DNA from: Minisyncoccota bacterium
GTDB lineage: Bacteria > Patescibacteriota > Minisyncoccia > Phycocordibacterales > XYD1-FULL-46-19
DNA: 64,000 nucleotides
Assembly (NCBI GenBank): GCA_041665625.1
Contig: JBAYIK010000002.1
Location: 33,126 to 97,125 of the forward strand
Direction: 5' to 3'
Below are positions 4,588 through 50,967 of the stretch, piece by piece. The translations under genes were made by a program, and so were the position numbers. Under the pieces are notes generated by a model, which saw only the letters and a list, made by a program, of their open reading frames with translations, had not been told where the DNA came from and ran no database searches. Numbering within the stretch: position 1 is the stretch's first letter; every line of letters starts with the position of its first letter.

Positions 4588-5145
4588 CTAAGTTTGGGAA
4601 TCATTGATAAATTGTCTAGCATTTTCGGAAACCCTTCCTGCGATAGAAGCTAAATTTGTTATTGCCGTTATAAAATTAAATTTATGAATAGGTTGAGCGA
4701 TATCTAGACAGCGAAGACTGCTTTTAAGATTCTCCCATTCGTGGAAATAATGTCCATAGAACCACCTATCAATTATTTTCTGAGTGGTCTCAACTTCGTC
4801 ATTAATCACGATTCTAATCATTGGATTGCACATCAGATTATTATAAGACTGCTTACACTTAATTATACTATTTCTCATCGCTGTGTTTTGGTTGCTATTT
4901 AACAACAAATCACAAATTTCTAGTATCGTAAGTCCCTCCTTTTTTAAGGTGATTTTTCTTAAATCAAGCAACATAGACCTTAGCTCATCTTCGTCGAATC
5001 CTGTAATGTCCTGGGATAGGGATTTATCAGTTTTATAATCCAACCTAAAAGCTATATTATCGACTCTCTTAAAAAACCGAGAAGACTGAACTCTCGTCAC
5101 GACATCTATATATGCTTCTATTTTTTCTCTATCTTGCTGGGTCAT
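4588..5145 (-). CDS. Hypothetical protein, 185 aa, translationally coupled to the upstream 821-aa gene
   Basis: The ORF overlaps the stop of 5129-7594 by 17 nt. No recognisable motif. Confidence 0.55.
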   Translation of the reverse strand: MTQQDREKIEAYIDVVTRVQSSRFFKRVDNIAFRLDYKTDKSLSQDITGFDEDELRSMLLDLRKITLKKEGLTILEICDLLLNSNQNTAMRNSIIKCKQSYNNLMCNPMIRIVINDEVETTQKIIDRWFYGHYFHEWENLKSSLRCLDIAQPIHKFNFITAITNLASIAGRVSENARQFINDSQT

Positions 5146-7594: not shown

Positions 7595-7725
7595 TAAAAA
7601 TACTACTGAAAATCAGATAGTCTATATCGTGAAGATGGGTTTTTAGTCTTCTGAATAAGCTCAAGGTAGACAGGAATCTTCGCAAAGGCTAAAGGCTTTA
7701 TTTATAAGATGAAAATGAAAATAAT

Positions 7726-8133
7726 ATGGGTTACCAACCTTACGGTTCGAACTTAGACGACATAGCGTACAGGGTAAATTTCGACCCGAATATACTCTGT
7801 ATTTTAGTAAACGGACACGAACTTAGCCGACTTCACTCTAAGACAGACATAGCTGATTTTTTTGAGTATGTTAACTCTCACCCAAATATAGCTATCAAAC
7901 TGAGCGACCTAAAAAAGCTTAGGCTCAAGAAAGGTCTTGACGATATTTTGAGAGATATTGGTTTTAGAGGAATCTTGGCAAAAATGTTTTTTCCTAAGAT
8001 GACCAACAGTGAAATTATTTTTAGAAATCCTATTTACCAAAAGGACCTAGAGGAACTAGGTATCGACTATGTAGATGCGTGGATACTGCTCCATACCCCT
8101 AAAAGAAAGGGGGCTTTCGACGTAACTTCTTAA
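7726..8133 (+). CDS. Hypothetical protein, 135 aa
   Basis: ORF in the accessory block, divergent from the 821-aa gene. Confidence 0.45.
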   Translation: MGYQPYGSNLDDIAYRVNFDPNILCILVNGHELSRLHSKTDIADFFEYVNSHPNIAIKLSDLKKLRLKKGLDDILRDIGFRGILAKMFFPKMTNSEIIFRNPIYQKDLEELGIDYVDAWILLHTPKRKGAFDVTS

Positions 8134-8191
8134 CACGTTTTAGCCCTCCTCTATAATTATCTGTGTTAGCCTGTCTACATAACCGATAATT

Positions 8192-8437
8192 ATGGAAAAT
8201 GAAAATAAAAAATTCCTGACCAGGGACTTCTACATAACCGCCTTCTTAATAGCGAAGGGGTATAAAGTCTCAGATGTTGATATGACAATCCCAGACAAAA
8301 TGTTCTTCTCCTTTGAGGACTTCAAAGGTAGGGAGCGTTTGGTTAGGGATTTTTTATGTGGGCAAGCTTCAGTTGAGCCCCAGAAATTTATTTCAGGGAT
8401 AAAAATACTGAAGTCTTTGATACACGCAAGAGATTAA
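8192..8437 (+). CDS. Hypothetical small protein, 81 aa
   Basis: ORF. It might be a directionality or regulatory factor because it sits next to the recombinase, but this is speculative. Confidence 0.4.
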   Translation: MENENKKFLTRDFYITAFLIAKGYKVSDVDMTIPDKMFFSFEDFKGRERLVRDFLCGQASVEPQKFISGIKILKSLIHARD

Positions 8438-8454
8438 ACAAGTTAGTAATAAAA

Positions 8455-8928
8455 ATGAAAATGAACAAACCACAGAGAACCAACCCTAAGAGCAATGTTG
8501 TAAAACTGGCCTTATGCACGGTGGGGCTCATATGCGAAAGGAGGAAAAACAAGTTGCCGACTCTTGCCTCCCTTCTGATATGCGTCGCACCGAAAAACTT
8601 TCTTTCTGTGGTCCATATCGTCAAACTTTTTATTTCCTCTAAAATCAGAAGGAAAAGTCGGGCTAATGGTAAAAATAAAATTATAATAGGTAGGTTAATT
8701 GTTCATAAACTAGACGGCAATTTTGATACTGAGGATATTGAGCTGTCTTGTTCAGGACCGAAGCAGTCAATAAGCCCAGAGACAATTAGAGAATTCAAGC
8801 AGATTGTGGAGGAAGAATACGGGCTAGTGATAGACAAGACTGACGCCTCTAGAATACTTTGTGGGTTGACCAACTTTTTCGACTTGCTAGCAAAAATAGA
8901 TTATCGAGAAAAAATAAAAGATGGTTGA
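8455..8928 (+). CDS. Hypothetical protein; the real start is probably internal
   Basis: ORF immediately upstream of the recombinase. Confidence 0.35.
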   Translation: MKMNKPQRTNPKSNVVKLALCTVGLICERRKNKLPTLASLLICVAPKNFLSVVHIVKLFISSKIRRKSRANGKNKIIIGRLIVHKLDGNFDTEDIELSCSGPKQSISPETIREFKQIVEEEYGLVIDKTDASRILCGLTNFFDLLAKIDYREKIKDG

Positions 8929-8973: not shown

Positions 8974-10560
8974 ATGAAAGATAATAATATGGAAAAAATT
9001 ACAAAAATGGTTAAGGCAGTAATCTTCCCCAGAGTCTCTTCGAAGGAACAGGAGGAAACAGGTTACTCCCTAGACGCTCAGCAGGAGCTGTTGAAGAATT
9101 ATAGTGACAAGCACTCGTTTGAAGTGGCCAAGGCCTTTAGAGTTTCGGAATCGGCTAGTGGTAAAAAACAAAGGTCGACCTTCAACGAAATGATGGCCTA
9201 TATGGATAAGAACAAAATAAACATACTCGTCTGCGAAAAGGTCGACAGATTAACTCGTAATTTTAAGGACGCAATTTTTATTGATGAATGGCTTGATAAA
9301 AACGAAAATCGACAGATTCATTTAGTCAAAGACGGTATAGTCTTGCACAAGTATTCTAAATCACAAGAAAAGCTTAATTGGGGAATCAGGATACTGTTCG
9401 CCAAAAATTATACTGATAATCTTTCGGAGGAAGTTAAAAAAGGCCAAAAACAGAAGTCAAAGGAAGGGTGGCTACCAACAAAGCCACCGCTGGGTTATAG
9501 AACGATAGGAGAGAAGGGCCACAAGGTGCACGTTGTTGATGAGAAGGTTGCTCCTTATATCAAAAAAATGTTTGACCTTTATGCCACAGGCAACTACTCA
9601 ACAGACTCTTTGGGGGACAAAATGTATAAGCTTGGGCTAAGAAGCCGTGGTGGTTTTCGAGTAGTTAAAAGCAAGATTCACAAACTTCTCTCTGACCCCT
9701 TCTACTATGGAATGTTTGTCTGGAAAGGTGAGGTCTATCAAGGGAAGCACGAACCGTTAATTGATAAAGACCTCTTTGGCCAAGTCAGGGAAAAAATGAC
9801 CAGGGGTAGTGCTCCCTACCACAACAAACATTTTAAGGAATTAAGAGGTAAGATATTTTGTGGAAATTGTGGCAAGACTGTAACCTGGGAAAAACAGAAA
9901 GGCTCTTGGTATGGGGCTTGCAAACAGTGCAAAGCTCAACTAGCCGACAAGAGGCAATATATTAAACAAGAAAATGTTGAGAACTACTTGCTGGACCTTA
10001 TAATCGCTACAGCACCCAAAAACGAAAGGATTCTTGCTGTTCTTAACAAGGCCCTCAAAGAGAGTCATAGCGAAGAAATTATATATCACGAAACACAGGT
10101 CCAGAGTATAAACAATAGCCTTACTCGTATCCAACAGAGGAAAAAGGTTCTCTATGATGACCGCCTAGATGGTAGAATTTCTCCCTCTGAATATGACCAA
10201 AAAATTGAGGAGTTTAGGCAAGAAGAAACTGACTTAATAAATTCGCTAAGCAAATTGAAGTCTGACAACACAGAATACTATAGAGTTGGTATCGCCCTTC
10301 ACGAGCTCGCTCTACGAGCAAGAGAAATATATTTAAGCAAAAAGGCTACAGTGGAAGAGCGTCGCTTGCTCTTGTCTTACTCTTTCTCGAACGTCTCGGT
10401 TCTACGGGGAGATATAAGGGCAGAGTACACAAAAGCGTTCCAGTTTTTGATTGATTGGATGCCGAAGGTAAATGAAACTCTCGAACTCACAAAAGACGTT
10501 GAGAATAAACAACAAAAGAGCACTTTCGTGCCCTCTTGTCCTATCCTGCTCCGCGGGTAG
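8974..10560 (+). CDS. Large serine recombinase (integrase / resolvase family)
   Basis: The N-terminal catalytic domain VIFPRVSSKEQEE...ILVCEKVDRLTRN carries the catalytic Ser. A recombinase domain follows, then the zinc ribbon CGNCGK...CKQCK and a coiled-coil C-terminus. The stop codon 10558-10560 overlaps the 3' end of tRNA exon 2. Confidence 0.85.
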   Translation: MKDNNMEKITKMVKAVIFPRVSSKEQEETGYSLDAQQELLKNYSDKHSFEVAKAFRVSESASGKKQRSTFNEMMAYMDKNKINILVCEKVDRLTRNFKDAIFIDEWLDKNENRQIHLVKDGIVLHKYSKSQEKLNWGIRILFAKNYTDNLSEEVKKGQKQKSKEGWLPTKPPLGYRTIGEKGHKVHVVDEKVAPYIKKMFDLYATGNYSTDSLGDKMYKLGLRSRGGFRVVKSKIHKLLSDPFYYGMFVWKGEVYQGKHEPLIDKDLFGQVREKMTRGSAPYHNKHFKELRGKIFCGNCGKTVTWEKQKGSWYGACKQCKAQLADKRQYIKQENVENYLLDLIIATAPKNERILAVLNKALKESHSEEIIYHETQVQSINNSLTRIQQRKKVLYDDRLDGRISPSEYDQKIEEFRQEETDLINSLSKLKSDNTEYYRVGIALHELALRAREIYLSKKATVEERRLLLSYSFSNVSVLRGDIRAEYTKAFQFLIDWMPKVNETLELTKDVENKQQKSTFVPSCPILLRG

Positions 10561-10586
10561 GACTCGAACCTACGACCAACCCGTTA

Positions 10587-11133
10587 CACTAATCCTGATG
10601 TTTCCAAAAGGCGTGGACTATATCATCACCCGGTCTGGGTGCAAGGCGCTTCCCCCGTACTTACGGAGTACTCTCTTTCGAGATAGTCTCTGAACCTTCC
10701 CTCTGATTTCTCTCGGGGCTTGGCTGCTGATTACCCTCGTCTTGACGTTAGGGCTTCCAGCAATTCACCTTGTTATTCATTCCTAAATTCCTTTAGGAAG
10801 CTGCGTAATACCTTCGTGTACTTCCATGTGACAATTAGCGCAAAGCAAAACGCATTTAGCAATCTCCTTCTCTATCTTCTCCCAAGATCTAGTTAATCCT
10901 CTTACAGATAAACCGAAATCTTTTTTCTTAGGATCAATATGATGAAAACTGAGAGCGCTCTGACTCTTAGAATAACCACATATCGCACACTTGCTACCTT
11001 TTGACGCACGAGCCATTTCTCTTAATTTTTTACGACGAAGAGATACAGCTTGGCGCAAATAGACAGCACGGTCTTTATAAGTTCTTTTGTCTGGCATACT
11101 CATACAAGTATACCATATTTGAACTCATGTGAC
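10587..11133 (-). other. Group I intron in the tRNA anticodon loop, carrying an HNH endonuclease ORF
   Basis: Reading the minus strand after the ORF: P-like gaattgctggaag, Q-like aatcagcagcc, R element GTTCAGAGACTAT (forward 10683-10696) and S element GATATAGTCCACGC (forward 10611-10624). P7 pairs GACTA with TAGTC. The 5' splice follows a U and the 3' splice follows a G. Confidence 0.7.
10783..11103 (-). CDS. HNH homing endonuclease encoded inside the group I intron
   Basis: 106-aa ORF with CAICGYS...HHIDPKK...CANCHMEVH, which is an HNH motif with a zinc-finger-like Cys/His arrangement. It lies between the intron 5' end and the P3-P9 core. Confidence 0.75.
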   Translation of the reverse strand: MSMPDKRTYKDRAVYLRQAVSLRRKKLREMARASKGSKCAICGYSKSQSALSFHHIDPKKKDFGLSVRGLTRSWEKIEKEIAKCVLLCANCHMEVHEGITQLPKGI

Positions 11134-11262
11134 ACAGCGGGCCGCTCTACCAACTGAGCTACCGCGGAATATAATTTTTAAGGAACTCCTCAATTTTAAA
11201 CAAAAAAGACGAAAAAGGCAAGGATTCAAAACCTCTCGATTTTATGGCTTTTTCCTGTATAA

Positions 11263-13113: not shown

Positions 13114-13404
13114 CTAGTATAGCTTCTGGGACAAGGCCCTCCCCCCGAAGAGAAGGACGGCCCCGCCAAACAAGAAGCCTATGATATACTTGGGTCCACC
13201 GCAAGTGTCGACGAAGTCGACATGGCTCATGAAGAGAGAGATGACAAAAGTGATCGGAGAGATCACCCCGTGCCACACTCCAACCAAGAAGCCGGGGGAC
13301 GACTCTTCGCCAGCCTGGGGGAGAATACTTGAACCCCAGATTCCCACTGCTCCACCAAACAGGGCAAGCAAGAGGATGGGAGGAAACAAGAAATGCTTCT
13401 TCAT
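13114..13404 (-). CDS. Hypothetical small membrane protein, 96 aa
   Basis: Two predicted TM helices and a Gly-rich sequence. Confidence 0.45.
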   Translation of the reverse strand: MKKHFLFPPILLLALFGGAVGIWGSSILPQAGEESSPGFLVGVWHGVISPITFVISLFMSHVDFVDTCGGPKYIIGFLFGGAVLLFGGRALSQKLY

Positions 13405-15137: not shown

Positions 15138-15989
15138 ATGGAAGAAAGCAAAAGTTCCTGGTTAGTGCCCGTTGCAATTATTGTCTGCATCCTGCTTATC
15201 GGCGGTGCTGTTTATTTTAAAGATAAATCTGGGACCACCAGTGGGAATAACGCCAGTTCAACTGGAGCGGCCAGCCAAGCCTTAGATAAAATTCTTACCT
15301 TAGACGATGGTCGCGGTGGAATCTTCGACGTTAATCAATTCGACTTAAGCAAATTACGACCTGTCGATAATACAGATCATATCTTGGGTAATGCCAACGC
15401 TCCGGTTAAAATTATTGCCTACACCGATCTAGAGTGCCCAGCCTGTAAGTATTATCACACCCAACTCAAAGGTCTTGAGGCCAAATATGTCGCTACTGGC
15501 AAATTGGCTATTGTCTACCGTCCTTTCCCGCTTGATCAAATTCACTCCAAAGTTCGCGCTGAATTCTTAGCCGCCGAATGTGTGAATGAACTTGGTGGCA
15601 ATGACAAGTACTGGCAATTCGTAGATAAAATTTTTGAAATTACCCCATCCAATAATGGACTCGATCCAGTCAAACTCGGCGAGACCGCCAAGGCACTAGG
15701 TATCAACATGAAGAGCTTCGACGCCTGCGTTGCCGCCAACAAATACGCTGACAAGATCCAGAAGGGTGAGGACGAGGCCATGGCCCTCCGTGCCCCTGGT
15801 ACCCCAACCACCTTCATCATTGATCCTCAAGGCGGTATCTCCCCCCGTGGTTTTGCTTACCAAAGCGAGGCCCTTTCTGCCGCTGTTGACCTCCTCTTAA
15901 CCCTCCCTGCCACAACCGCTCCCGCCGCTGTTGCTCCTGTTGCCACCACCACTGGTGCTGTCGCCGGGACAAGTACGGCGACCCAGTAA
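15138..15989 (+). CDS. DsbA-like thiol:disulfide oxidoreductase, membrane-anchored
   Basis: N-terminal TM helix, the thioredoxin active site CPACKYYH, and a Thr/Ala/Pro-rich C-terminal tail. Confidence 0.7.
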   Translation: MEESKSSWLVPVAIIVCILLIGGAVYFKDKSGTTSGNNASSTGAASQALDKILTLDDGRGGIFDVNQFDLSKLRPVDNTDHILGNANAPVKIIAYTDLECPACKYYHTQLKGLEAKYVATGKLAIVYRPFPLDQIHSKVRAEFLAAECVNELGGNDKYWQFVDKIFEITPSNNGLDPVKLGETAKALGINMKSFDACVAANKYADKIQKGEDEAMALRAPGTPTTFIIDPQGGISPRGFAYQSEALSAAVDLLLTLPATTAPAAVAPVATTTGAVAGTSTATQ

Positions 15990-16002
15990 AAAACTCAAAT
16001 TA

Positions 16003-16135
16003 ACTCAGCCAAACAACACAGAAAACCCCTCCAGCGAGGGGTTTTCTTACGTTTCGTCATGGCCATTTTGTCATAGTTCTGCGAACAAAGGATGACAAAA
16101 ACCGGCTGGCCATAACTACACGAGGTTGTTTGACT
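16003..16135. repeat. Palindromic MITE-like repeat, copy A. It is diverged and in inverted orientation relative to copies B, C and D.
   Basis: caaacaacacagaaaacc plus the hairpin AAAACCCCTCCAGCGAGGGGTTTT (16022-16045) plus ggccattttgtcat...atgacaaaaaccggctggcc...cgaggttgtttgac. Each segment aligns to the reverse complement of the 187-bp element at 45437 and 48706. It lies directly after the DsbA-like gene stop. Confidence 0.6.
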
Positions 16136-16245
16136 GAATTAATTCTCGCTTAATTAAACGAGACCTCACTTTAACGAACAACAGAAAAGCCCCACACGTC
16201 GTGCGCGCGAGACCTCTCTCACGCACCCCGTGTGGGGCCGCTAAA

Positions 16246-16683
16246 TCATTGGGACGGGTCATTCAGCTTCGGGCTAAACGTCCCGTCAATGTCGAACTCC
16301 TTACCTTCGACCAGCAGCTCGAGAGGGATCTTCCTAACCACCCGTTCCCCATAGCCATGTGGCCCGGGGATCTGGAGCAAGGCCGTACCGTCTGACCCAT
16401 TGACGACGTGGACAACCTTGTAGTGCCCAGACGAAAGGTCGTCGTATGTCAGGTACAGGTGGTCTTCCTTGTACTGGATGACCTGCCCCCTGTGGATGGA
16501 CTGAAGCTCGGCCAGGACGGCCTTGTCTTCGACACCCCATCTCGCCTGAAAAATGATGACGGAAAGGAGGGTGATGAAGACAAGGATGGAGACATCGGAT
16601 ATCCACCGAAGGCTCTGCCTCATCTTCACGAGTTCCCCCTTTACTACCTCCTCAAAACTCTTTTCTTCGGGCTTCTCTGCCAT
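16246..16683 (-). CDS. Hypothetical single-TM protein; GC-rich, probably a foreign gene
   Basis: 145 aa with a strong SD (AAGGAG) 8 nt before the ATG. Local GC is well above the surroundings. It is bracketed by repeat copies A and B. Confidence 0.55.
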   Translation of the reverse strand: MAEKPEEKSFEEVVKGELVKMRQSLRWISDVSILVFITLLSVIIFQARWGVEDKAVLAELQSIHRGQVIQYKEDHLYLTYDDLSSGHYKVVHVVNGSDGTALLQIPGPHGYGERVVRKIPLELLVEGKEFDIDGTFSPKLNDPSQ

Positions 16684-16811
16684 GATGGAATTCTCCTTCC
16701 GTTTTGGCGTACTTTTCCATTGTCAGACTCACACGAGCCATAACTTTCTGCCCATTATTATGCACCTATTAAAGCTATTTGTCAATATAAACGTAATGTC
16801 AGCTCCGATAA

Positions 16812-16865
16812 GAAAACCCCTCGCTGGAGGGGTTTTCTGTGTTGTTTTATTGGCTAAGCCGAGCG
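16812..16865. repeat. Palindromic MITE-like repeat, copy B: a partial right end containing a terminator hairpin
   Basis: gaaaacccctcgctggaggggttttctgtgttgttttattggctaagccgagcg matches the right end of the 187-bp element. It lies directly after the rpoD stop. Confidence 0.6.
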
Positions 16866-16867
16866 GT

Positions 16868-18187
16868 CTAATAACCTTGAAGTTTCTTCGCCTTCTCATG
16901 CTGTCTTATCTTCTCATGAGCCTTAGCCTCAATCTGACGAATGCGTTCACGAGTGACACCAAACTCTTTACCCACTTCTTCGAGGGTGCGCATTACCCCA
17001 TCTTTGAGACCATGACGCATCTCCAAAATTCGTTGTTCTTTCATCGTGAGGTCGCTCATGATCTCATCAATCTGATCACGAAGGATACGACGGGAGGTGT
17101 CTTGGTCGGGGGAAGCAATCTTGTCGTCGGCGATGAATTCGCCCAAGGTGCTCTTATCATCATCGTCGTCGGTTGGCTTATCTAAACTTGCAGTGCTCTG
17201 ATCAATCTTCTCAATGGTGTGGATTTTCTCAACCTCAACACCCATCTCGGTAGCAATTTCTTGTGGCAACGGGTCACGACCCAAGTCTTGAGCTAAGCGA
17301 CGATAAACCTGTTTATACTTAGCGATAGTCTCCACCATGTGCACCGGAATACGGATAGTACGTGACTGGTCAGCCAAAGCACGAGTGACAGCCTGACGAA
17401 TCCACCAGGTGGCGTAGGTTGAGAACTTATAACCCTTGCGCCAGTCAAATTTTTCTACGGCCTTGAAGAGGCCGATATTCCCCTCCTGAATTAGATCGAG
17501 TAAGGTTAAGTCTTGACTACGGCCAATATATTTCTTGGCAATCGAGACAACAAGACGAAGGTTGGCATTGGCCAGATCTTTCTTGGCATCATCATCCCCA
17601 GCCAAAATTCTTTTAGCTAAATCCTTTTCTTCATTACCGTTAAGGAGTTTGTGACGGCCAATCTCACGCAAGTACATTTGGACAGAGTCAAGAGAGACAT
17701 CACCTCGTTCATGTTTGATCTTCTCATCCACTTTCATATCTGAATCAAGCAAAGATCCTTCTTCAAGAATATCAATCCCCGACTCTTCAAACTTGGTATA
17801 GAGTTCGTCTAAGAAGATAATATCATTCTCAATATTAGGAAATTCTTTTAGAATCTCTGAGTAAGTTACAAAGTGGCGTTGTTTGCCCTTGCCGATCAAG
17901 TTGTCCATCTTCTGCTTCAGCTTAGACTCCATGGTCTGACCCTCTTTCTTCATGGCGACTACTTCTTTTTTATGGATGACAAAACCCTTACCCGCAGGTT
18001 TCTTGGCTGACTTTTTAGCAACAACTTTCTTCTTTACCACCTTAGCCTTCTTAATAACCTTTTTCACAGCCTTGGCTTTCTTGGTCACCTTTTTCTTGGC
18101 GACCTTCGCCTTCTTAACAACTTTTTTCACAACCTTGGCTTTCTTGACGGCTTTTTTCTTCGCAACGACTTTAGTTTTTTTCTTCAT
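16868..18187 (-). CDS. rpoD: RNA polymerase sigma-70 factor RpoD with an N-terminal lysine/alanine-repeat (histone-H1-like) extension
   Basis: Regions 2-4 are conserved: [33 protein letters not shown] and [14 protein letters not shown]. The N-terminal roughly 60 aa is [10 protein letters not shown]-type repeats. Confidence 0.9.
18001..18187 (-). repeat. Tandem roughly 30-bp coding repeats (K/A/V-rich) at the rpoD 5' end
   Basis: Repeated aagaaagccaaggttgtgaaaaaagttgtt-type units encode [10 protein letters not shown]. Confidence 0.55.
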
Positions 18188-32976: not shown

Positions 32977-33183
32977 CTAGGACGCCTTGTAGCTGTGAGC
33001 GATGACCTCGTTTCTCCCGACCATGAACGTCTCTTTGGAAGTGGTGAGAACGAGCTGTTCGCCATTTTCTTCCAGGGTAAGCCGACCTTCAAATTTGTGG
33101 CCACCATTCAGGTAAACGGTGACCGTCTTGCCATTCATCCTCTCTGCCTGATCCTTGTTCACAAGAGCACTCCTTTTTCTCAA
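32977..33183 (-). CDS. Small Sm-fold, Hfq-like RNA-binding protein
   Basis: 68 aa. VTVYLNGGHKFEGRLTL...LVLT....FMVGRNEVIAHS resembles Hfq Sm1/Sm2. Elevated GC. Confidence 0.4.
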   Translation of the reverse strand: MRKRSALVNKDQAERMNGKTVTVYLNGGHKFEGRLTLEENGEQLVLTTSKETFMVGRNEVIAHSYKAS

Positions 33184-33311
33184 CGTTGATTCTGCGTTTC
33201 GAAAATATCCAGCAATTGGAGATCTTCTCTGGTTTCAGTTAAACACCTTTTACTCCCTTTTACTAGCAAACCCTTTCCTTTGAAGCTCAGTGGCTAAGCG
33301 AGGCCGAGCGC

Positions 33312-35573
33312 CTACTTTGCATATTGTTCCGCTTCATCGAATTTTATCGATATCAGGCGAGAAACAGAATCCGCACCCATGGTGACGCCATACAAGATGC
33401 CGGCGCGGGACATAGTCTCACGATTGTGAGTAATAAGAATAAGCTGAGAATATTTAGAGAGACCTTCAATCATATCCGCATATTTCTTAGAGTTAGCTTC
33501 ATCAAGAGCGGCATCAGTCTCGTCAAGAATAAGAAACGGCGGTGGGTTCACCTGGGACATCGCAAAGAGAAGGGCAATCGAAGTAAGTGCGCGCTCTCCC
33601 CCCGATAACATGGCGAGACCCTTAATTTTTTTGCGCGGCAAGCTCACGTTTATCTCGATTCCAGACTTCCCTTCTTCGTCTTCTTCCATAATTTCAGGGA
33701 TCTCCCCTTCTTCGCCCATCATTTCTAAATCAATATTCTCCTTCTTTTTGAGAGGCTTCAAAAGTTCCAAATTAGCACTCCCACCACCAAAGAGCACGGC
33801 AAAGAATTTCTGGAATTCTTGATTAATCTTAGTAATACCAGAATTGAATTCCACTTCAATCTTCGCCCGCAAATCAGTCATCACAGAAAGTAATGATTCG
33901 CGGCTAAGAGCTAAGTCTTCAAGTTCCTTGGCTAAGAAGGCGTCACGCTCCACCACCTCATCGTGTTCCTTCAAGACCTCACTACTCTCCACACCCATAT
34001 CCTCTAAGCGAATCTTGATACGCTCGATCTTGCGACGACGGTCTTCTTGCAAAGTTCTCTCTTCATTTCTTACCTCTTCCCAAGAGATGTCATTGGCCTG
34101 ATATTCCAAAACTTCGCGACCAATTAAGGTCCCGGCTTCGCCCAACTCTCTTTTGAAATTTTCTTCCTCAATAGCTAAGGTATCACGCTTAGACAGTAAG
34201 GTACGAACTTTAAGTTCCAAATCACTTTTCTTGGCACGCAATTCATAGAAATCGTGTTCGGCATTTTGGGCCGTCTGCCTCAGGCGAACGATATTTTCTT
34301 TAATATCCCCAATCTCGGTTTGGTGATTCCCCTCTTCTTTATCTAATTCTTGAACTCTTGCCTGAAGATTATGATGCTCCATCTTAATCTTCTCCAACTC
34401 CTCAGTCTGATCATTTCCTTGTTCTGAGCTTGTCGAAGGAGATTCATAGCTCGCAATAAAATCATGCAAACTAGAGCGCAAATTTTTGACAGAATTTTTA
34501 ATATCAATAAGGTCTGTCGTTCTCTCTATCTCTTCAAACCGACTATCTAAATCACCGACAAATTGACGTGCTTCGGTAAGAGAAATTTTAGCCTCTGGGC
34601 CAACATGTTTAACTTCTTTTTCTTTAAATTCCAAAAGACCTTCCAGGCGACCCAGGGCACGAGCTAACTCATCTTTTTGCAGGCGCAAGGTCCGAATCTT
34701 CGTTTCTAATTCACGTAATTTATTTTCTTCGGCAATGATCTCTGTTTGATGGCCACCCGTTTGCTGCTTAGCCTCTCTTTCAGATAATTGTCTTGAGACA
34801 TCAGTCAAGAGAGTCTCTGGACCAGTAATTTCATTAACAATATTTTCTTTGGTAAAAGACAAATAAACTTCTTCACGTTTAAGATAGTCGCGGTAGAGAG
34901 TTTGGAGCTCCACTTTCAATTCACGAACTTTCTCTATCTTCTCCACCTGTTTCTTCAAGAATTTGAGATGGGGCACGATCTCCCGACGGATAGATTCAAC
35001 TTGTTTTATATTCTCTTCGGTCTTGCCAAGCTTTTTCTCACTCTCGCCCAACTTCCATTGGTAAATCTTCAGACCTAAAGCTTCTTCAATCATCAAGCGT
35101 CGTTCAATATTATTCGCATTAAGAATTTTATCGGCTTCACCCTGGCTAATGATATGATGCCCCGAAGCGCCAATTGAAATACCAGCGAGAATCTCAATGA
35201 TGTCACGCAAGCGCACGGTCGAGCCATTAATTTTATATTCGTTTGTCCCGTCACGGAAAACTTCACGCGAGATTACCACTTCGTCAAAATCAATACTAGC
35301 AAAATGTCGATTAGTATTATCAAAGGTCACCGCCACCGAGGCACGAGAAAGACGCCCCAAAGATGAAGAACCGTTGAAGATTAAGTCTTCTCCTTTCTTG
35401 CCACGAAGTGATTTGAGAGATTGCTCCCCCAACACCCACCTAAAGGCCTCGGCCACATTAGACTTGCCCGAACCGTTTGGCCCAACAATGGCAACCACTG
35501 GAGCATCAAAAAAAAGCGTCTCCTTACGTCCAAAAGACTTAAAACCCGACAGCTCTAATTTCTTGAGAGTCAT
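33312..35573 (-). CDS. SMC-family ATPase, short Smc/RecN-like coiled-coil protein
   Basis: Walker A GPNGSGKSN, a long coiled coil, the signature LSGGERALTSIALLFA, and Walker B FLILDETDAALD. Confidence 0.7.
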   Translation of the reverse strand: MTLKKLELSGFKSFGRKETLFFDAPVVAIVGPNGSGKSNVAEAFRWVLGEQSLKSLRGKKGEDLIFNGSSSLGRLSRASVAVTFDNTNRHFASIDFDEVVISREVFRDGTNEYKINGSTVRLRDIIEILAGISIGASGHHIISQGEADKILNANNIERRLMIEEALGLKIYQWKLGESEKKLGKTEENIKQVESIRREIVPHLKFLKKQVEKIEKVRELKVELQTLYRDYLKREEVYLSFTKENIVNEITGPETLLTDVSRQLSEREAKQQTGGHQTEIIAEENKLRELETKIRTLRLQKDELARALGRLEGLLEFKEKEVKHVGPEAKISLTEARQFVGDLDSRFEEIERTTDLIDIKNSVKNLRSSLHDFIASYESPSTSSEQGNDQTEELEKIKMEHHNLQARVQELDKEEGNHQTEIGDIKENIVRLRQTAQNAEHDFYELRAKKSDLELKVRTLLSKRDTLAIEEENFKRELGEAGTLIGREVLEYQANDISWEEVRNEERTLQEDRRRKIERIKIRLEDMGVESSEVLKEHDEVVERDAFLAKELEDLALSRESLLSVMTDLRAKIEVEFNSGITKINQEFQKFFAVLFGGGSANLELLKPLKKKENIDLEMMGEEGEIPEIMEEDEEGKSGIEINVSLPRKKIKGLAMLSGGERALTSIALLFAMSQVNPPPFLILDETDAALDEANSKKYADMIEGLSKYSQLILITHNRETMSRAGILYGVTMGADSVSRLISIKFDEAEQYAK

Positions 35574-43687: not shown

Positions 43688-45433
43688 ATGGAAAATGATA
43701 TAAACAAAATTCGGCACTCGCTCGCCCACTTATTAGCGATCGCCGTGAAGGCTAAATATCCTGAAGCTAAGTTAGGGATTGGCCCAACAATTGAAAATGG
43801 CTTCTACTACGACTTTGACTTCGGAGCAAGTGTCCCGCCAGAGAACGAGCTCTTAGATCTCGAGAAAGATATGCGCGCGCTTGTCTCTAAGAATATCGAC
43901 TTCGTTCGCTCCGAGATTAGCTCCGACGAAGCAAAAAATATCTTTACTGACGAGCCTTATAAGCTTGAATTAATTGCTGATCTAGAGAAGACTGGCGAAC
44001 AAATTTCTACCTACACATCAGACAGCTTGACCGACCTCTGTGCCGGTCCCCATGTAGCAAGTACGGGAGAGATCGCCCGTGACGCCTTCAAGCTCACTCG
44101 CATTGCTGGCGCCTACTGGCGCGGGGATGAGAAAAACAAAATGCTCACCCGTATCTACGGTGTTGCCTTTGCTAACAAAAAAGATTTGGATGATTACTTA
44201 GAGATGATAGTCGAGGCCGAAAAAAGAGATCATCGCAAACTCGGCAAAGAATTAGAAATTTTTACCTTCGACGATGATGTTGGTGCCGGTCTCCCCTTGT
44301 GGCTTCCTAATGGCACTATTATTATCGATGAACTTGAAAAATTAGCTAAAGAAACTGAGGCTGATGGTGGATATCTTCGCGTTCGCACACCTCATTTAGC
44401 CAAAGAATCCATGTATCTCAAGAGTGGTCATTTGCCTTACTATCAAGACAGCATGTTCCCTCCGATGGAATATGAGGGTATGAAATATTACCTTAAGGCA
44501 ATGAACTGCCCCCACCATCACAAAATTTTTGGTCACAAAACTAGGAGTTACAAAGAATTGCCTGTTCGCCTAGCGGAATATGGGACTTGTTATCGTCACG
44601 AAAAATCCGGCGAGCTCTTCGGCTTAATGCGCGTACGCATGATGCAAATGAACGATGCTCATATCTACTGCTCCAAAGAACAATTTGCTCAAGAATTCAA
44701 AGCGGTGAATGAGATGTACCTCAAGTATTTCAAAATTTTTGGTGTGGACAAATATGTAATGCGTCTCTCAACTCATGATCCTAAAAAATTAGGAGAAAAA
44801 TATGTTAACGAACCAGAGCTCTGGCTTGAGACAGAAAAAATGGTTCGAGACACTCTAATCGAAGCCAAGATTCCTTATGTTGAGGTTCCCAACGAAGCAG
44901 CTTTCTATGGACCAAAGATTGACGTCCAAGTTTGGAGTGCTATTGGCCGAGAATTTACCCTCGCAACAAACCAAGTAGACTTTGCTGTGCCTAAGCGCTT
45001 CGGTCTAACTTATGCTGATGCCGAAGGGAAACAAGAAACTCCGCTCTGTATCCATCGTGCGCCCCTTGGCACTCACGAACGCTTTGTTGGGTTCTTAATC
45101 GAACACTATGCCGGTAACTTCCCTACCTGGCTCGCGCCAACACAAGTGAAAATTATCCCTGTGCTAGAAAATCATAATGATTATGCGCAGAGCGTTTACA
45201 AAGAATTAAGAGCTCTCGATATCCGTGCCAGTATTGATGATAGCGATGAAGGTATGGGCAAAAAAATTCGCGAAGGCAAGGTCAACAAAATCCCCTACAT
45301 GATTGTCATCGGCGACAAAGAAATTGAAGAAAAAATGATTACCGTTGAGAAGCGTGGGGGCGACAAGGGAGAATTGATGCCTCTCGCTGATTTTGCGAAA
45401 AATATTGTTGAGGAAATAAAAGAAAGAAAATAA
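43688..45433 (+). CDS. thrS: Threonine--tRNA ligase (short form lacking the N-terminal TGS domains)
   Basis: Editing-domain HxxxH motif IRHSLAHLLA, class II motifs, and a C-terminal anticodon-binding domain. Confidence 0.9.
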   Translation: MENDINKIRHSLAHLLAIAVKAKYPEAKLGIGPTIENGFYYDFDFGASVPPENELLDLEKDMRALVSKNIDFVRSEISSDEAKNIFTDEPYKLELIADLEKTGEQISTYTSDSLTDLCAGPHVASTGEIARDAFKLTRIAGAYWRGDEKNKMLTRIYGVAFANKKDLDDYLEMIVEAEKRDHRKLGKELEIFTFDDDVGAGLPLWLPNGTIIIDELEKLAKETEADGGYLRVRTPHLAKESMYLKSGHLPYYQDSMFPPMEYEGMKYYLKAMNCPHHHKIFGHKTRSYKELPVRLAEYGTCYRHEKSGELFGLMRVRMMQMNDAHIYCSKEQFAQEFKAVNEMYLKYFKIFGVDKYVMRLSTHDPKKLGEKYVNEPELWLETEKMVRDTLIEAKIPYVEVPNEAAFYGPKIDVQVWSAIGREFTLATNQVDFAVPKRFGLTYADAEGKQETPLCIHRAPLGTHERFVGFLIEHYAGNFPTWLAPTQVKIIPVLENHNDYAQSVYKELRALDIRASIDDSDEGMGKKIREGKVNKIPYMIVIGDKEIEEKMITVEKRGGDKGELMPLADFAKNIVEEIKERK

Positions 45434-45436
45434 TCA

Positions 45437-45622
45437 AGCTCGGCGTCGTTCGGTAAAACAACCTCGCGGAGCTACGGCCAGCTGGTTTTTGCCATTTGGT
45501 CGCAGACCGGCAATATCAAGGTCCGACCTTGATATTGCGATGGCAAAATGGCCGTCGCGGAGAGTAAAAAAACCATTCGCAGGAATGGTTTTCTGTGTTG
45601 TTTTACTGAAGCGACGCCGAGC
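45437..45622. repeat. 186-bp palindromic MITE-like element with terminal inverted repeats, copy C
   Basis: TIR agctcggcgtcgttcggtaaaacaac ... gttgttttactgaagcgacgccgagc, an internal near-palindrome ggccagctggtttttgccat...atggcaaaatggcc, and the hairpin aaaaccattcgcaggaatggtttt. About 95% identical to copy D. It starts 3 nt after the thrS stop. Confidence 0.8.
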
Positions 45623-45766
45623 ACCCCTAGGCGTTATCGAACACCCAGTGTTAGATAATAAGAAATATATGTTGCCCACCCAGACCAATCTTCTAAAAAG
45701 TCCTCGGATCTCCTCGTGTATCTCGGCCAGACATTTTTATAAGCTTGTCTGGGCGGGGGCCATCCC

Positions 45767-45800
45767 AAAAGTGGCAAACACCAGGTGTTTGCCACTTTTT
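45767..45800. terminator. Terminator downstream of the 860-aa surface protein gene
   Basis: AAAAGTGGCAAACACC-agg-TGTTTGCCACTTTTTG. Confidence 0.6.
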
Positions 45801-45802
45801 GT

Positions 45803-48385: not shown

Positions 48386-48421
48386 GGACGGAAAACTAAA
48401 AAGAATACCCAGGGCGATTAC

Positions 48422-48436: not shown

Positions 48437-48475
48437 TAAAAAGTGGATTTTTCATATTTCATATAATTACCTTAG

Positions 48476-48553: not shown

Positions 48554-48572
48554 TTTTTGGTGTGTTGTAATT

Positions 48573-48617: not shown

Positions 48618-48705
48618 GCAGCTAAGCGAGGCTTAGTAATTATGAAAAGCTCCCCCTTCGCTCTTGCAGAGCTACGGAGGGACAGGCTCGTGAAGCTAGT
48701 ATCTA

Positions 48706-48892
48706 AGCTCGGCGTCGTTCGGTAAAACAACCTCGCGGAGCTACGGCCAGCATGGTTTTTGCCATTTGGTCGTAGACAGGCAATATCAAGGACTCCCCTT
48801 GATATTGCGATGGCAAAATGGCCGTCGCGGAGAGTAAGAAAACCATTCGCAGGAATGGTTTTCTGTGTTGTTTTACTGAAGCGACGCCGAGC
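48706..48892. repeat. 187-bp palindromic MITE-like element, copy D
   Basis: Near-identical to copy C with the same orientation. It ends 2 nt from the gyrB stop codon. Confidence 0.8.
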
Positions 48893-48894
48893 GC

Positions 48895-50967
48895 TTATGC
48901 GTCAACATTTGCGAGTTTAGCATGCGTCTGGATAAAGATTTTGCGAGGTTCAACTTCAGAGCCCATCAAGACATCAAAGGTTTTGTCGGCTTCTTCGGCA
49001 TCGCGAATAGTAATTTGCTTCATCACACGGCTAGCTGGGTTCATGGTTGTCTCCCACAATTCCTCTGGGTTCATTTCTCCAAGACCCTTGTAGCGCTGAA
49101 TTGAGATCTTGCTTGTTCTTGATTTAATATTCCCCTCTTCTTCTGAGATTTCAGCATCCACATCTGTTTCATTGTCTGGCTCATCTTCAGTCTCAACCAC
49201 GGCCACTTCTTCTTCGCCACCACTCATTTCTTTAATCAAACGATTTTTCTCTTCATCACTATAAGCATAATTCATATCCTTGCCCTTCTTAATCTTATAG
49301 AGAGGAGGTTGAGCAATATAAATATGTCCGGCATCGATAAGCGGGCGGTAATAACGGAAGAAGAGAGTCAACAAAAGTGTAGAGATGTGCGCGCCGTCCA
49401 CGTCGGCATCGGTCGCGATAATAATTTTATGATAACGTAGGCGCGAGAGATCCATCATATCGCCAATACCCACACCCATAGCAATGATTAGAGATTTAAC
49501 TTCTTTAGATGCAAGCATTTTATCAAGGCGGGCCTTCTCAACATTCAAAATTTTGCCACGCAAAGGAAGAATGGCTTGGGTGCGACGATCACGTCCTTGC
49601 TTACTCGATCCACCGGCCGAGTCTCCCTCTACAATGAAGATTTCGGATTCCTCGGGGCTACGGCTCTGACAATCAGCGAGCTTACCAGGCAAAGTCATGC
49701 CCTCAAGCGCCCCCTTACGAATCACGCTATCCTTGGCCGCCTTAGCCGCCTTCCTCGCTTTAAGAGCTAAGATAGACTTACTAATGATGGCCTTGGCATC
49801 GTCTGGATTCTCTTCGAGATAAATATTCAAAGCCTCGCCGAAGACCGTCTCGACGGCTCCACGAGCCTCTACGCTACCGAGTTTGGCCTTGGTCTGACCT
49901 TCGAATTGGGGGTTGCGCAATTTGACCGAGACGACAGCGGTCATTCCCTCACGGACGTCATCCCCAGTTAAGCTCCCCTCACTTTCTTTAAGAATATTAT
50001 TCTTCTTACCGTAATCATTTAGGATACGAGTTAAAGCAGTACGGAAACCTGTTAGGTGCATACCGCCTTCGGGAGTGATGGTGTTGTTAGTAAAACTTAT
50101 TTCTTTGAAATCAATATCGTCAACGTATTGCAAAGCAACCTCAACCATAATGTCGTTGGCCTCCTTCTCAACATAAAAGATCTCACGATGAAGCGGTTTG
50201 TCGTGACGATTATAATAACGAACAAGGGATAGTAAACCGCCCTCGAAATAGAAAGATTTGTTAGGGGCCTCAAGACCAAGCTCGGACAAGAAAAAGACTT
50301 TGTCGGTGTCTATTTTCTCTTTGACCTCACGAGCATCAATAACTCTAATTCTTAAACCTTTAACCAAGTAGGCCTGACCACGGAGATGGTTGACCATGCG
50401 GTCCCAATCATAGACGGTCTCAGAAAAAATTGTCGGGTCAGGTTGGAAGCTGATTATAGTGCCATGGAGCTTAGAAGAAGAGACTTTCTTAACATTATAT
50501 TTTTTCTTCCCAATGGCAAACTCTTGCATATACTTACCACCGTCACGATGAACCTCTGCCTTAAGCCAAGTGGAGAGAGCGTTTACCACCGAAGCACCCA
50601 CACCATGCAAACCACCAGAAATTTTATAAGAATCGCCCTCGAATTTACCACCAGCATGGAGGACAGTAAGAACAGTCTCAAGCGTAGAGACCTTGGTCTT
50701 CTTGTGCACTTCAACAGGGATACCGGTACCATTATCAACGACACGGATAGCGTTGCCAGGAAGTATGGCCACCTCAATCTCATTACAAAAACCGTTCATC
50801 GCTTCGTCGCGAGAGTTATCAAAAATCTCAACCATCAAGTGATGGAGACCATCAGGACCCGTTGAGCCAATATACATACCAGGACGCTTGCGCACTGGCT
50901 CTAGACCCTCAAGGACGACGATGTCGTCGGCCCCATAGTGACGTGTTTTTGTGTTGTCTTTAGCCAT
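48895..50967 (-). CDS. gyrB: DNA gyrase subunit B
   Basis: YGADDIVVLEGLEPVRKRPGMYIGSTG, ATPase and TOPRIM motifs. The ATG at 50967 is preferred over the TTG at 50982. Confidence 0.9.
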   Translation of the reverse strand: MAKDNTKTRHYGADDIVVLEGLEPVRKRPGMYIGSTGPDGLHHLMVEIFDNSRDEAMNGFCNEIEVAILPGNAIRVVDNGTGIPVEVHKKTKVSTLETVLTVLHAGGKFEGDSYKISGGLHGVGASVVNALSTWLKAEVHRDGGKYMQEFAIGKKKYNVKKVSSSKLHGTIISFQPDPTIFSETVYDWDRMVNHLRGQAYLVKGLRIRVIDAREVKEKIDTDKVFFLSELGLEAPNKSFYFEGGLLSLVRYYNRHDKPLHREIFYVEKEANDIMVEVALQYVDDIDFKEISFTNNTITPEGGMHLTGFRTALTRILNDYGKKNNILKESEGSLTGDDVREGMTAVVSVKLRNPQFEGQTKAKLGSVEARGAVETVFGEALNIYLEENPDDAKAIISKSILALKARKAAKAAKDSVIRKGALEGMTLPGKLADCQSRSPEESEIFIVEGDSAGGSSKQGRDRRTQAILPLRGKILNVEKARLDKMLASKEVKSLIIAMGVGIGDMMDLSRLRYHKIIIATDADVDGAHISTLLLTLFFRYYRPLIDAGHIYIAQPPLYKIKKGKDMNYAYSDEEKNRLIKEMSGGEEEVAVVETEDEPDNETDVDAEISEEEGNIKSRTSKISIQRYKGLGEMNPEELWETTMNPASRVMKQITIRDAEEADKTFDVLMGSEVEPRKIFIQTHAKLANVDA

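What the first reader, a model, noticed from the sequence alone, without database searches (positions are those of the whole stretch)
16003..16865. Inverted pair of the same repeat family flanks a GC-rich foreign gene between the DsbA-like gene and rpoD
Copy A (16003-16135, inverted, diverged) and partial copy B (16812-16865) carry the same hairpin (AAAACCCCTC-cagcg/cgctg-GAGGGGTTTT) in opposite orientations. They enclose the 16246-16683 ORF, whose GC content is far above the local average, and it has a strong SD. The arrangement looks like a MITE-mobilised or recombination-captured cargo gene. It also gives rpoD and the DsbA-like gene their terminators.
Basis: seen in the sequence. Interest (0 to 1): 0.5.

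Follow-up and report, generated by a model that had tools for sequence, protein, structure and literature searches.

The report
Stop-codon-anchored repeats flank resident gene
The two inverted repeats are copies of a folded element of about 170 bases that Paceibacterota genomes keep directly behind the stop codons of genes, and they did not bring in the GC-rich gene between them, because relatives lacking one of the repeats have that gene at the same place.

Summary
A 39-nt perfect inverted repeat (16011-16049 / 16809-16847) belongs to a repeat family with two more copies in the window (45432-45628, 48701-48898). The enclosed 145-aa ORF has the highest GC3 of 53 ORFs (0.73 against 0.44 +/- 0.09).

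The cargo interpretation does not hold. The ORF lies between rpoD and dsbA in four diverged Paceibacterota lineages (47-85% aa identity). Two of these have no dsbA-side repeat.

The repeat occurs across Patescibacteria. It is a three-way-junction element with strong covariation (17 of 44 pairs compensatory). Its 3' end lies 0-5 nt from the stop codon of a convergent gene in 29 of 31 copies. rpoD and dsbA converge, so their two copies are necessarily inverted. The shared 39-mer is the family's invariant core, found in at least 12 copies from other contigs, so it is not evidence of recent duplication.

Partial support for "foreign": the rpoD-dsbA interval is a variable slot. Other relatives hold unrelated small GC3-rich ORFs there, or none.

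The element has no Rfam match, and five literature searches found no description of it. Its wobble pairs favour the strand antisense to the abutting gene. It is lost as a discrete unit. Its function is inferred (terminator or 3'-end module), not shown.

The parts
15138..15989 (+). DsbA-like thioredoxin-fold gene (283 aa). Its stop codon TAA at 15987-15989 is directly abutted by copy A.
   Evidence: Pfam Thioredoxin_4 at 7.6e-25 and DSBA at 1.7e-11. Stop-codon distance measured.
15990..16153 (-). Copy A: a full-length family element (short-P2 variant). The closing stem P1 pairs 16001-16017 with 16124-16140. The central hairpin P2 spans about 16049-16115. The terminator-like hairpin P3 is at 16020-16047. 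The 5' motif TTAAGCGAG is at 16145-16153. The 3' end abuts the dsbA stop codon.
   Evidence: nhmmer E 1e-40, profile positions 2-169. Fold -69.1 kcal/mol, z -9.6. Terminator-like site at 16047-16020.
16183..16238 (-). The ORF's own GC-rich intrinsic terminator. It is conserved in L003, L009 and L042.
   Evidence: Inverted repeat 16189-16212 / 16215-16238. Terminator scan. Sequences of relatives.
16246..16683 (-). 145-aa orphan gene. It encodes an N-terminal transmembrane helix, a second helix and a small beta domain. GC3 is 0.726.
   Evidence: No Pfam, PHROG, NCBIfam or PADLOC match. Only 5 relatives among 1.84 billion representative proteins. AF2 model with the beta domain at pLDDT 83-88.
16684..16785 (-). 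Promoter and 5' UTR of the ORF. The -35 box TTGACA is at 16785-16780 and the -10 box CATAAT at 16762-16757. A 5'-UTR hairpin lies at about 16726-16739. The SD AAGGAG is at 16693-16698.
   Evidence: Promoter scan, 11 of 12 matches. The module is conserved in L003 and L009.
16809..16867 (+). Copy B: a truncated element that retains only P3 (16811-16838) and the 3' arm. Its 3' end abuts the rpoD stop codon at 16868-16870. It is orthologous to full-length copies in L009, L042, L003/L027 and L076.
   Evidence: nhmmer profile positions 112-174, E 2e-14..
16868..18187 (-). rpoD (sigma-70, 439 aa).
   Evidence: Pfam Sigma70 r1.1, r1.2, r2, r3 and r4.
45432..45628 (+). Copy C: a full element with a long P2 tip, 93-95% identical to D. 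Its 5' end lies 2 nt after the thrS stop codon. It is absent from the thrS flank in CAIPHT01.
   Evidence: (fold z -11.5).
48701..48898 (+). Copy D: a full element abutting the gyrB stop codon. It is orthologous to L025 (CAIPHT01) and L020 (CAZIIR01).
33294..33314 (+). Solo termini or footprint, CTAAGCGAGGCCGAGCGC+CTA, at the SMC-like gene's stop codon. The element body is missing here. Four other genomes carry a full element at the same site.
   Evidence: C-terminus ...SIKFDEAEQYAK* matches L029-, L053+ and L024, with a close variant (...IKFDEAAASWAK*) in L023.

Best explanation
A and B are two members of a repeat family found across Patescibacteria. The element is 160-210 nt long and highly structured. 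It has a long closing stem P1, a central hairpin P2 with a conserved bulge, and a terminator-like hairpin P3 flanked by an A-run and a T-run.

Each copy is anchored so that its 3' end (...CCGAGC) lies 0-5 nt from the stop codon of a gene on the opposite strand. B belongs to rpoD and A belongs to dsbA. Because these two genes converge, their elements are necessarily inverted relative to each other.

The gene between them is a separate, self-contained unit with its own sigma-70 promoter, 5'-UTR hairpin, SD, ORF and GC-rich terminator. It has occupied the rpoD-dsbA interval since before the four sampled lineages diverged. It was not delivered by the repeats.

Shown: family membership, the structure and its covariation, the stop-codon rule, synteny, and turnover of copies (truncation of B, loss at SMC, duplication of C).

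Inferred: P3 acts as a bidirectional intrinsic terminator or 3'-end guard for the abutting gene. The full element also has a strand-specific single-strand (probably RNA) function.
For: Family and structure:
- nhmmer hits for A, B, C and D.
- Folds with z scores of -9.6 to -11.5.
- RNAalifold predicts 44 pairs, 17 of them with compensatory changes.
- 97.5% of cells are paired, against 87.4% in shuffles. The covariation score is 0.304, against 0.117 in shuffles (0 of 500 reach it) and 0.04-0.08 in the slid controls.

Stop-codon rule:
- The reverse-complement stop codon of a long convergent ORF starts 21-27 nt after CTGTGTT in 29 of 31 copies.
- The same holds in 19 of 20 metagenome copies, some of which duplicate the first set.

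Orthology of positions:
- The same genes carry the element in several genomes: rpoD in 5, gyrB in 3, SMC-like in 4, and others.

The ORF is resident:
- Same synteny in L009, L003/L027, L042 and the window.
- There is no dsbA-side element in L009 or L042, where an unrelated terminator sits instead.
- The rpoD-side element co-occurs with an unrelated slot gene in L076.
- Raised GC3 is conserved in the orthologues: 0.70, 0.68 and 0.58.

The 39-mer is family-wide: it is found exactly in at least 12 copies on other contigs.

Terminator-like sites are scored at both P3 hairpins.
Against: - No sampled genome carries the ORF with neither repeat, so a link to the rpoD-side copy cannot be excluded from co-occurrence alone.
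- The interval is a gene-turnover slot, so the ORF is not a core gene, and its GC3 excess remains unexplained.
- The terminator scan scored P3 only in the direction facing the abutting genes. In the gene's own direction the T-tract is shorter (TTTTCTTA).
- No transcript data exist.
- Wobble-pair asymmetry points to the strand antisense to the abutting gene (55 G.U against 8 A.C cells). A pure "3' UTR terminator of the abutting gene" model does not predict this.
Confidence: 0.72

Rival explanations
1. The rpoD-dsbA interval is a recombination hot spot, and the 145-aa ORF is one of several exchangeable accessory cassettes (promoter-ORF-terminator) swapped between Paceibacterota lineages. The conserved flanking genes or elements serve as homology arms. 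On this reading the gene is 'recombination-captured' on a longer timescale.
For: Slot content differs among relatives that share the same flanking synteny:
- The ORF145 family occupies the slot in 4 lineages.
- L046 has x153 + x194, although its dsbA is 80% identical to the window's.
- L076 has x157, L047 an unrelated 153-aa ORF, and L078 an unrelated 176-aa ORF.
- L049 and L077 have no ORF.

All slot ORFs are orphans with GC3 of 0.55-0.73 in loci of 43-46% GC.

The cassettes share a promoter module, TTGACA-N12-TAGGTGTATAAT.

The window's ORF is closer to CAIPHT01's (85% aa) than to that of the closer relative L009 (67%).
Against: - Slot content also varies in genomes with no element at all (L046, L047, L078), so the repeats are not needed for the turnover.
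- The low identity to L009 is confined to the N-terminal transmembrane part of the ORF and could reflect fast local divergence.
- No donor was found. The family is confined to these bacteria and is absent from viral contigs.
Confidence: 0.2
2. One reading: A and B form a composite, MITE-bounded unit that transposed or captured the ORF as cargo.
For: The copies are inverted and flank a compositionally atypical gene. The family shows copy gain and loss (C is absent from the thrS flank in CAIPHT01; losses).
Against: - The ORF is present without A in two lineages.
- The B-type copy is present with other slot genes.
- B is truncated and lacks one arm.
- Each copy obeys the stop-codon rule independently.
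- The ORF family is found only at this locus on all long contigs.
- No transposase is encoded in the window.
Confidence: 0.03
3. The 39-bp perfect inverted repeats make the 759-bp segment invertible by homologous or site-specific recombination, which would flip the ORF cassette.
For: The inverted repeats are perfect. Inversion between the two P3 copies would rebuild a full element behind rpoD, as seen in L009 (inference).
Against: Both contigs that carry the identical protein show the same orientation. All four lineages have the ORF co-oriented with rpoD. The promoter would move with the ORF, so inversion would not act as a switch.
Confidence: 0.03

Closest known systems
REP / BIME elements and REPIN-RAYT systems (Enterobacteria, Pseudomonas)
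   Same: Both are multi-copy extragenic palindromic elements at the 3' ends of genes. Both have lineage-specific sequence variants, persist at orthologous sites and work as terminator or mRNA-end structures. Many E. coli REPs lie within 15 nt of a stop codon and stall ribosomes there (PMC12306157, citing Liang et al. 2015). The fold is strand-specific. No target-site duplication is visible in the filled/empty pairs.
   Different: REPs are simple hairpins of 20-40 nt with a GTAG head, and REPINs are doublets. This element is a three-way junction of 160-210 nt, with three direct TCGC(N)GGAG motifs and an almost invariable position 0-5 nt from a stop codon. No RAYT/Y1 transposase was found in the window. 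Whole genomes were not searchable.
Correia (CREE/NEMIS) elements of Neisseria and ERIC/IRU elements
   Same: They have a similar size (100-155 nt) and a long closing stem formed by terminal inverted repeats. They are intergenic and co-transcribed with neighbouring genes, and they have terminator and RNase III-substrate properties. These properties are stated from general knowledge. The window does encode RNase III.
   Different: Correia elements duplicate a TA target and lack internal branches. No stop-codon anchoring is described for either family. Here TA flanks are frequent but not proven to be a duplication.
IS200/IS605-derived palindrome-associated elements (PATEs)
   Same: Both show no target duplication, strand-specific single-strand folding and discrete unit gain or loss. 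The element also has a conserved sequence on one flank (AAGCGA) that is complementary to an internal repeated TCGC. This last point is a lead only.
   Different: No TnpA or TnpB gene is linked to the element. The architecture is one closed three-way junction rather than separate left-end and right-end hairpins. The favoured strand is the one expected to be the leading-strand template, if the abutting genes are co-oriented with replication.
Integron attC sites
   Same: Both lie immediately after the stop codon of an ORF. Both are recognised through structure, are strand-specific, and carry an AAC...GTT pair in the stem.
   Different: The core sites RYYYAAC / GTTRRRY at the base of the stem are not met. 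The AAC/GTT pair lies at the inner end of P1, in AAACAAC / GTTGTTT. There is no integrase and no cassette array. The abutted genes are core genes (rpoD, gyrB, SMC).
Composite transposon or MITE-bounded cargo
   Same: Two inverted copies of one repeat bracket a gene.
   Different: The unit is not mobile as a whole. One arm is truncated. The gene predates the arrangement.

Membership tests
Composite / MITE-bounded mobile cassette | Two terminal copies of one element in inverted (or direct) orientation | tested here: met
   39-nt inverted repeat; both arms are family members.
Composite / MITE-bounded mobile cassette | The whole unit (arm-cargo-arm) is present or absent as a block in relatives, or occurs at other loci | tested here: not met
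   The ORF is present without arm A in L009 and L042. The arm-B orthologue is present with a different gene in L076. The ORF family is found only at this locus on long contigs.
Composite / MITE-bounded mobile cassette | Target-site duplication flanking the composite unit | tested here: inconclusive
   The outer flanks are the two stop codons (TAA / CTA). Only a TA is shared.
MITE (non-autonomous TIR element) | Terminal inverted repeats | tested here: met
   The P1 arms give 17-27 bp of complementarity. However, the arm sequences differ between copies through compensatory changes. That pattern fits selection on structure better than a shared transposase-binding site.
MITE (non-autonomous TIR element) | Target-site duplication | tested here: not met
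   The filled/empty pair L076/L046 has unambiguous junctions with no duplication. In the SMC pair, the 7-nt CGAGGCC repeat is part of the palindromic stem base.
MITE (non-autonomous TIR element) | An autonomous partner with the same ends and a transposase gene | not testable with these tools
   None in the window. Complete genomes could not be scanned.
REP / REPIN-RAYT | Short (20-40 nt) palindromic unit with a conserved 5' tetranucleotide, singly or as an inverted doublet | tested here: not met
   The unit is a three-way junction of 160-210 nt.
REP / REPIN-RAYT | A cognate single-copy RAYT (Y1 HUH transposase) gene in the genome | not testable with these tools
   No Y1_Tnp domain in the window ORFs scanned.
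Integron attC | R''/R' core sites RYYYAAC...GTTRRRY at the base of the stem, with an integrase or cassette array nearby | tested here: not met
   AAACAAC / GTTGTTT do not fit the consensus and lie at the inner end of P1. The only recombinase in the window is a serine recombinase at 8974-10560, which is unrelated.
Intrinsic (rho-independent) terminator | GC-rich stem-loop followed by a T-run | tested here: met
   The scan scores 16047-16020(-) and 16811-16838(+). In the opposite direction the tail is TTTTCTTA (read from the sequence). Activity was not tested.
Any Rfam 15 RNA family | Covariance-model match | tested here: not met
   No hit at gathering threshold in the window. The best hit at E<=10 on copy C is RefA9 at 15.9 bits, E 5.8.

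The most novel reading that the evidence does not exclude
The repeat is an undescribed class of structured single-strand element of Paceibacterota/Patescibacteria, most likely RNA. It is a three-way junction present in roughly ten or more copies per small genome. Each copy is positioned within a few bases of the stop codon of a convergent, often essential, gene such as rpoD, gyrB or SMC. Its structure appears to be selected on the strand antisense to that gene. It evolves in concert within genomes while keeping orthologous positions. This pattern implies a trans-acting partner: a binding protein or an ssDNA/RNA-acting enzyme that recognises the three TCGC(N)GGAG motifs. The function would be a 3'-end control or guard, going beyond a plain terminator.
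Probability: 0.3. Interest if true: 0.7.

Novelty: new variant of a known kind. Interest (0 to 1): 0.45.

Why it matters
For this finding, the analysis removes a false lead. An inverted repeat pair around an atypical gene is not evidence of capture when the repeat family follows a positional rule tied to the neighbouring genes.

Beyond that, CPR/Patescibacteria genomes are small and usually regarded as repeat-poor. This family has four copies, one footprint and one relic in 64 kb. It has deep positional conservation, strong covariation, exact stop-codon anchoring and strand-asymmetric wobble pairs. It would be a useful handle on how these organisms end transcripts, protect essential genes from convergent transcription, or host a REP-like selfish or domesticated element.

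The variable rpoD-dsbA slot, with its orphan GC3-rich cassettes, marks a site of accessory-gene turnover in otherwise syntenic core regions.

Tried and rejected
- **Phage origin.** Neither the ORF family nor the repeat pattern occurs in IMG/VR contigs.
- **Known RNA family.** No Rfam match.
- **Literature.** Five full-text searches found no description of this element.
- **Link between the small GC-rich ORFs.** The 96-aa ORF at 13114-13404 is not related to the ORF that neighbours the distant homologue in L045.
- **Recent duplication of A from B.** Rejected, because the shared 39-mer is invariant across the family. By global alignment, A's nearest relatives are copies on other contigs.
- **Simple inversion as the origin of the A/B layout.** Rejected, because the ORF keeps the same orientation in all lineages.
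- **TA target duplication.** TA flanks are common, but the conserved CAG-Y-TAAGCGA extends beyond them, and the filled/empty pairs show no duplication.
- **Conserved small ORF inside the element.** Rejected, because the candidate ATG is ACG or absent in many copies.
- **Conserved promoter upstream of the element.** None was seen.

Full report
**Source and setting.** The window comes from a Candidatus Paceibacterota (CPR/Patescibacteria) MAG contig. The 145-aa protein is found with identical sequence on ENA ERZ27249449 k141_1276007 (135 kb) and on a JGI contig. The local gene order is sua5 > tRNA-binding protein > dsbA-like > | < ORF145 < rpoD < dnaG < rpoC < rpoB.

**Check of the observation.** The inverted pair is real. 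Positions 16011-16049 and 16809-16847 are 39 nt long and 100% complementary. The hairpin AAAACCCCTC-N4-GAGGGGTTTT occurs exactly twice in the window and in none of 100 shuffles. Two longer copies of the same family lie at about 45.4 kb and 48.7 kb. A profile built from 21 full copies gives these matches:
- A at 15993-16155(-), full length, E 1e-40.
- B at 16808-16869(+), profile positions 112-174 only, E 2e-14.
- C at 45432-45628(+).
- D at 48701-48898(+).

The ORF at 16246-16683(-) has GC 0.550 and GC3 0.726. The mean GC3 of 53 ORFs is 0.439 with sd 0.087, so it is the highest value in the window. Two other small ORFs are also high. The ORF has a near-consensus promoter, an SD and its own terminator.

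**Is the ORF cargo?** A search of 5.8 billion proteins found only two other clusters, at 85% and 65% identity. An exhaustive HMMER search of 1.84 billion representatives added three distant homologues (47%, 47% and 36% identity) and one spurious hit. Every homologue that lies on a long contig sits in the same place, between rpoD and dsbA:
- L003/L027, which is Ca. Vogelbacteria CAIPHT01.
- L009.
- L042, which is Paceibacterota JBAZMZ01.

The promoter, 5'-UTR hairpin, SD and GC-rich terminator are conserved with the ORF. GC3 is also raised in the orthologues (0.70, 0.68 and 0.58) against neighbours at 0.37-0.52. The composition is therefore an old, maintained property and not a mark of recent transfer.

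The repeat complement around the ORF differs between lineages:
- L009 and L042 have a full element behind rpoD and none on the dsbA side, where an unrelated terminator sits.
- CAIPHT01 has a divergent full copy behind rpoD and a truncated copy at the dsbA stop codon.
- The window has a truncated copy behind rpoD and a full copy at dsbA.

The gene predates the A/B arrangement.

**What the repeat is.** A degenerate core pattern found 30 loci among GTDB species representatives. About 22 of them are in Patescibacteria. They include Ca. Vogelbacteria, other Paceibacterota, and MAGs labelled Saccharibacteria or "Patescibacteria group". CAIPHT01 alone has 9 pattern matches plus the divergent rpoD copy. 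A JGI metagenome scan added 25 loci. None was found in viral contigs.

The element folds far better than shuffled sequence, with z scores of -9.6 to -11.5. On 21 copies RNAalifold gives a three-way junction:
- a closing stem P1;
- a central hairpin P2 with a conserved 5' bulge (AGCYGG) and a variable tip;
- a hairpin P3 flanked by A- and T-runs.

Of the 44 predicted pairs, 17 keep pairing through changes on both sides. With that structure, 97.5% of cells are paired against 87.4% in shuffles. The covariation score is 0.304, against 0.117 in shuffles (0 of 500 reach it) and 0.04-0.08 when partners are slid. The junctions and the P3 loop carry three direct copies of TCGC(N)GGAG. There is no Rfam match, and five literature searches found no description.

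**The positional rule.** In 29 of 31 copies, the reverse-complement stop codon of a long convergent ORF (76-758 codons) begins 21-27 nt after the core CTGTGTT. In other words, the element's 3' end (...CCGAGC plus 2-5 variable bases) directly abuts that gene's stop codon. The same holds for 19 of 20 copies in the metagenome loci, some of which duplicate the first set.

The same genes carry the element in several genomes:
- rpoD in 5 genomes.
- gyrB in 3, including a genome that carries the second subfamily.
- the SMC-like gene ending ...QYAK* (one variant ...SWAK*) in 4.
- genes ending ...FPFKK* (4), ...LPYLAG* (3, one variant ...LPYRAG*) and ...VE[IV]K* (3).
- others in 2 genomes each.

Mean identity is 0.785 between copies in the same genome. 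It is 0.788 between orthologous positions in different genomes, and 0.725 for unrelated pairs. Vertical persistence and within-genome homogenisation or duplication both seem to operate; C and D, for example, are 93% identical.

rpoD lies on the minus strand and dsbA on the plus strand, and they converge. One element on each gene must therefore form an inverted pair. The shared 39-mer occurs exactly in at least 12 copies on other contigs, so its perfection says nothing about a recent event.

**Turnover of copies.** Truncated copies always retain P3 plus the stop-proximal arm (B, L013+, L022, L026 and the dsbA copy of CAIPHT01). This fits selection on the terminator-like part.

Two filled/empty comparisons show that the body is lost as a discrete unit:
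- Behind rpoD, L076 has 153 nt between TAGAA and TCGCTTGG that L046 lacks exactly, with no duplicated flank.
- At the SMC-like gene, CAIPHT01, Ga922, CAZXCI01 and MHTK01 carry a full copy. The window keeps only the joined termini, CTAAGCGAGGCC|GAGCGC-CTA, at 33294-33314.

Copy C lies 2 nt after the thrS stop codon. It has no counterpart in CAIPHT01, where the thrS-gyrB interval holds a single element, the orthologue of D with the same P2 tip.

**Which strand?** On 35 full copies, the consensus structure shows 55 G.U cells in 16 pair columns on the strand I call forward, which is antisense to the abutting gene. It shows 8 A.C cells in 6 columns. Folding the reverse strand recovers only a 40-pair subset of these pairs. 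The forward strand has the lower single-sequence MFE in 31 of 35 copies. This argues for selection on a single-stranded form of the forward strand.

That result is not what a plain "3' UTR of the abutting gene" model predicts. The context on the 5' side is mixed: by a rough automatic classification that mislabels at least copy A, it is 11 convergent, 13 tandem and 8 with no nearby gene. No conserved promoter was seen. I leave this point unexplained.

The terminator scan scored P3 only in the forward direction for both A and B. In the gene's own direction the tail is TTTTCTTA. P3 is therefore plausibly bidirectional but stronger against transcription running into the 3' ends of rpoD and dsbA. 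An E. coli precedent exists for structured repeats within 15 nt of stop codons that affect translation termination (PMC12306157, citing Liang et al. 2015).

**The slot.** Relatives were sampled through dsbA homologues. The interval between dsbA and rpoD holds different content in the same flanking synteny:
- the ORF145 family in the window, L009, CAIPHT01 and JBAZMZ01;
- two unrelated ORFs in L046, whose dsbA is 80% identical to the window's;
- a homologue of one of those two in L076;
- other unrelated ORFs in L047 and L078;
- no ORF in L049 and L077.

All slot ORFs are orphans with GC3 of 0.55-0.73. Several share the promoter module TTGACA-N12-TAGGTGTATAAT. The ORF is therefore an accessory gene in a turnover slot, which gives partial support to the "foreign" label. 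However, turnover also occurs in genomes with no element.

The window's ORF is nearer to CAIPHT01's (85% aa) than to L009's (67%), although L009 is the closer genome. The deficit is confined to the N-terminal transmembrane part. Either fast divergence or allelic exchange could explain this.

**The protein.** AF2 with six sequences gives a transmembrane helix (residues 10-48), a second helix (54-74) and a small beta domain (about 78-132, pLDDT 83-88), with mean pLDDT 70.7. No informative structural or family match was found.

**Verdict.** The pair is a by-product of a stop-codon-anchored repeat family. That family is the more interesting object, and I rate it a new variant of REP/ERIC/Correia-like intergenic repeats. 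Its mechanism is unresolved.

Noticed in passing
window 45432-48898: Copies C and D (93-95% identical, direct orientation) bracket a 3.1-kb segment. It holds an 860-aa gene (PG_binding_1 / GDSL-like, GC 0.41) and a partial family relic at about 48615-48700. The relative CAIPHT01 has only 766 bp and a single element between thrS and gyrB. This is a second variable interval bounded by the family.
   Followed up: partly
window 33294-33314: The joined termini of the element (CTAAGCGAGGCCGAGCGC + CTA) sit at the stop codon of the SMC-like gene, with no element body. Four other genomes have a full element at this site. This looks like a precise-loss footprint.
   Followed up: yes
window 32977-33138 (-): An unlisted 53-aa GC-rich ORF (MNGKTVTVYLNGGHKFEGRL...) lies between the RNase R and SMC genes. 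By eye it has an Sm/Hfq-like sequence pattern. It appears to be another small monocistronic GC-rich unit.
   Followed up: no
window 13114-13404 (-) and 35674-36009 (+): Two more small monocistronic ORFs have high GC3 (0.69 and 0.64) and their own GC-rich terminators. The 96-aa ORF is conserved and also GC3-rich in L009 (56% aa identity), and it weakly matches phrog_30702. Small GC3-rich genes appear to be a recurrent class in this 44% GC genome.
   Followed up: partly
window 10548-11168 (-): A tRNA-Thr(UGU) gene is interrupted in the anticodon loop by a 547-nt group I intron (Rfam RF00028, 78.7 bits) that carries an HNH-like ORF (10783-11103). A second, intact tRNA-Thr(UGU) lies at 55213-55286, next to another HNH ORF (54740-55153).
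   Followed up: partly
window 8974-10560 (+): A large serine recombinase gene (Resolvase + Recombinase domains) lies next to the intron-bearing tRNA and to several orphan ORFs (5129-8928). This may be an integrated element at a tRNA.
   Followed up: no
L046:2395-3639, L076:3879-4352: The slot cassettes in relatives share near-identical promoter and 5'-UTR modules (TTGACA-N12-TAGGTGTATAAT-AAAACAGAATGAA-hairpin), although they encode unrelated proteins. L046 carries two such cassettes in tandem.
   Followed up: partly
window 18024-18149: A 63-nt tandem direct repeat (81% identity) lies inside the lysine-rich N-terminal extension of rpoD (KKAKVVKKV... repeats).
   Followed up: no
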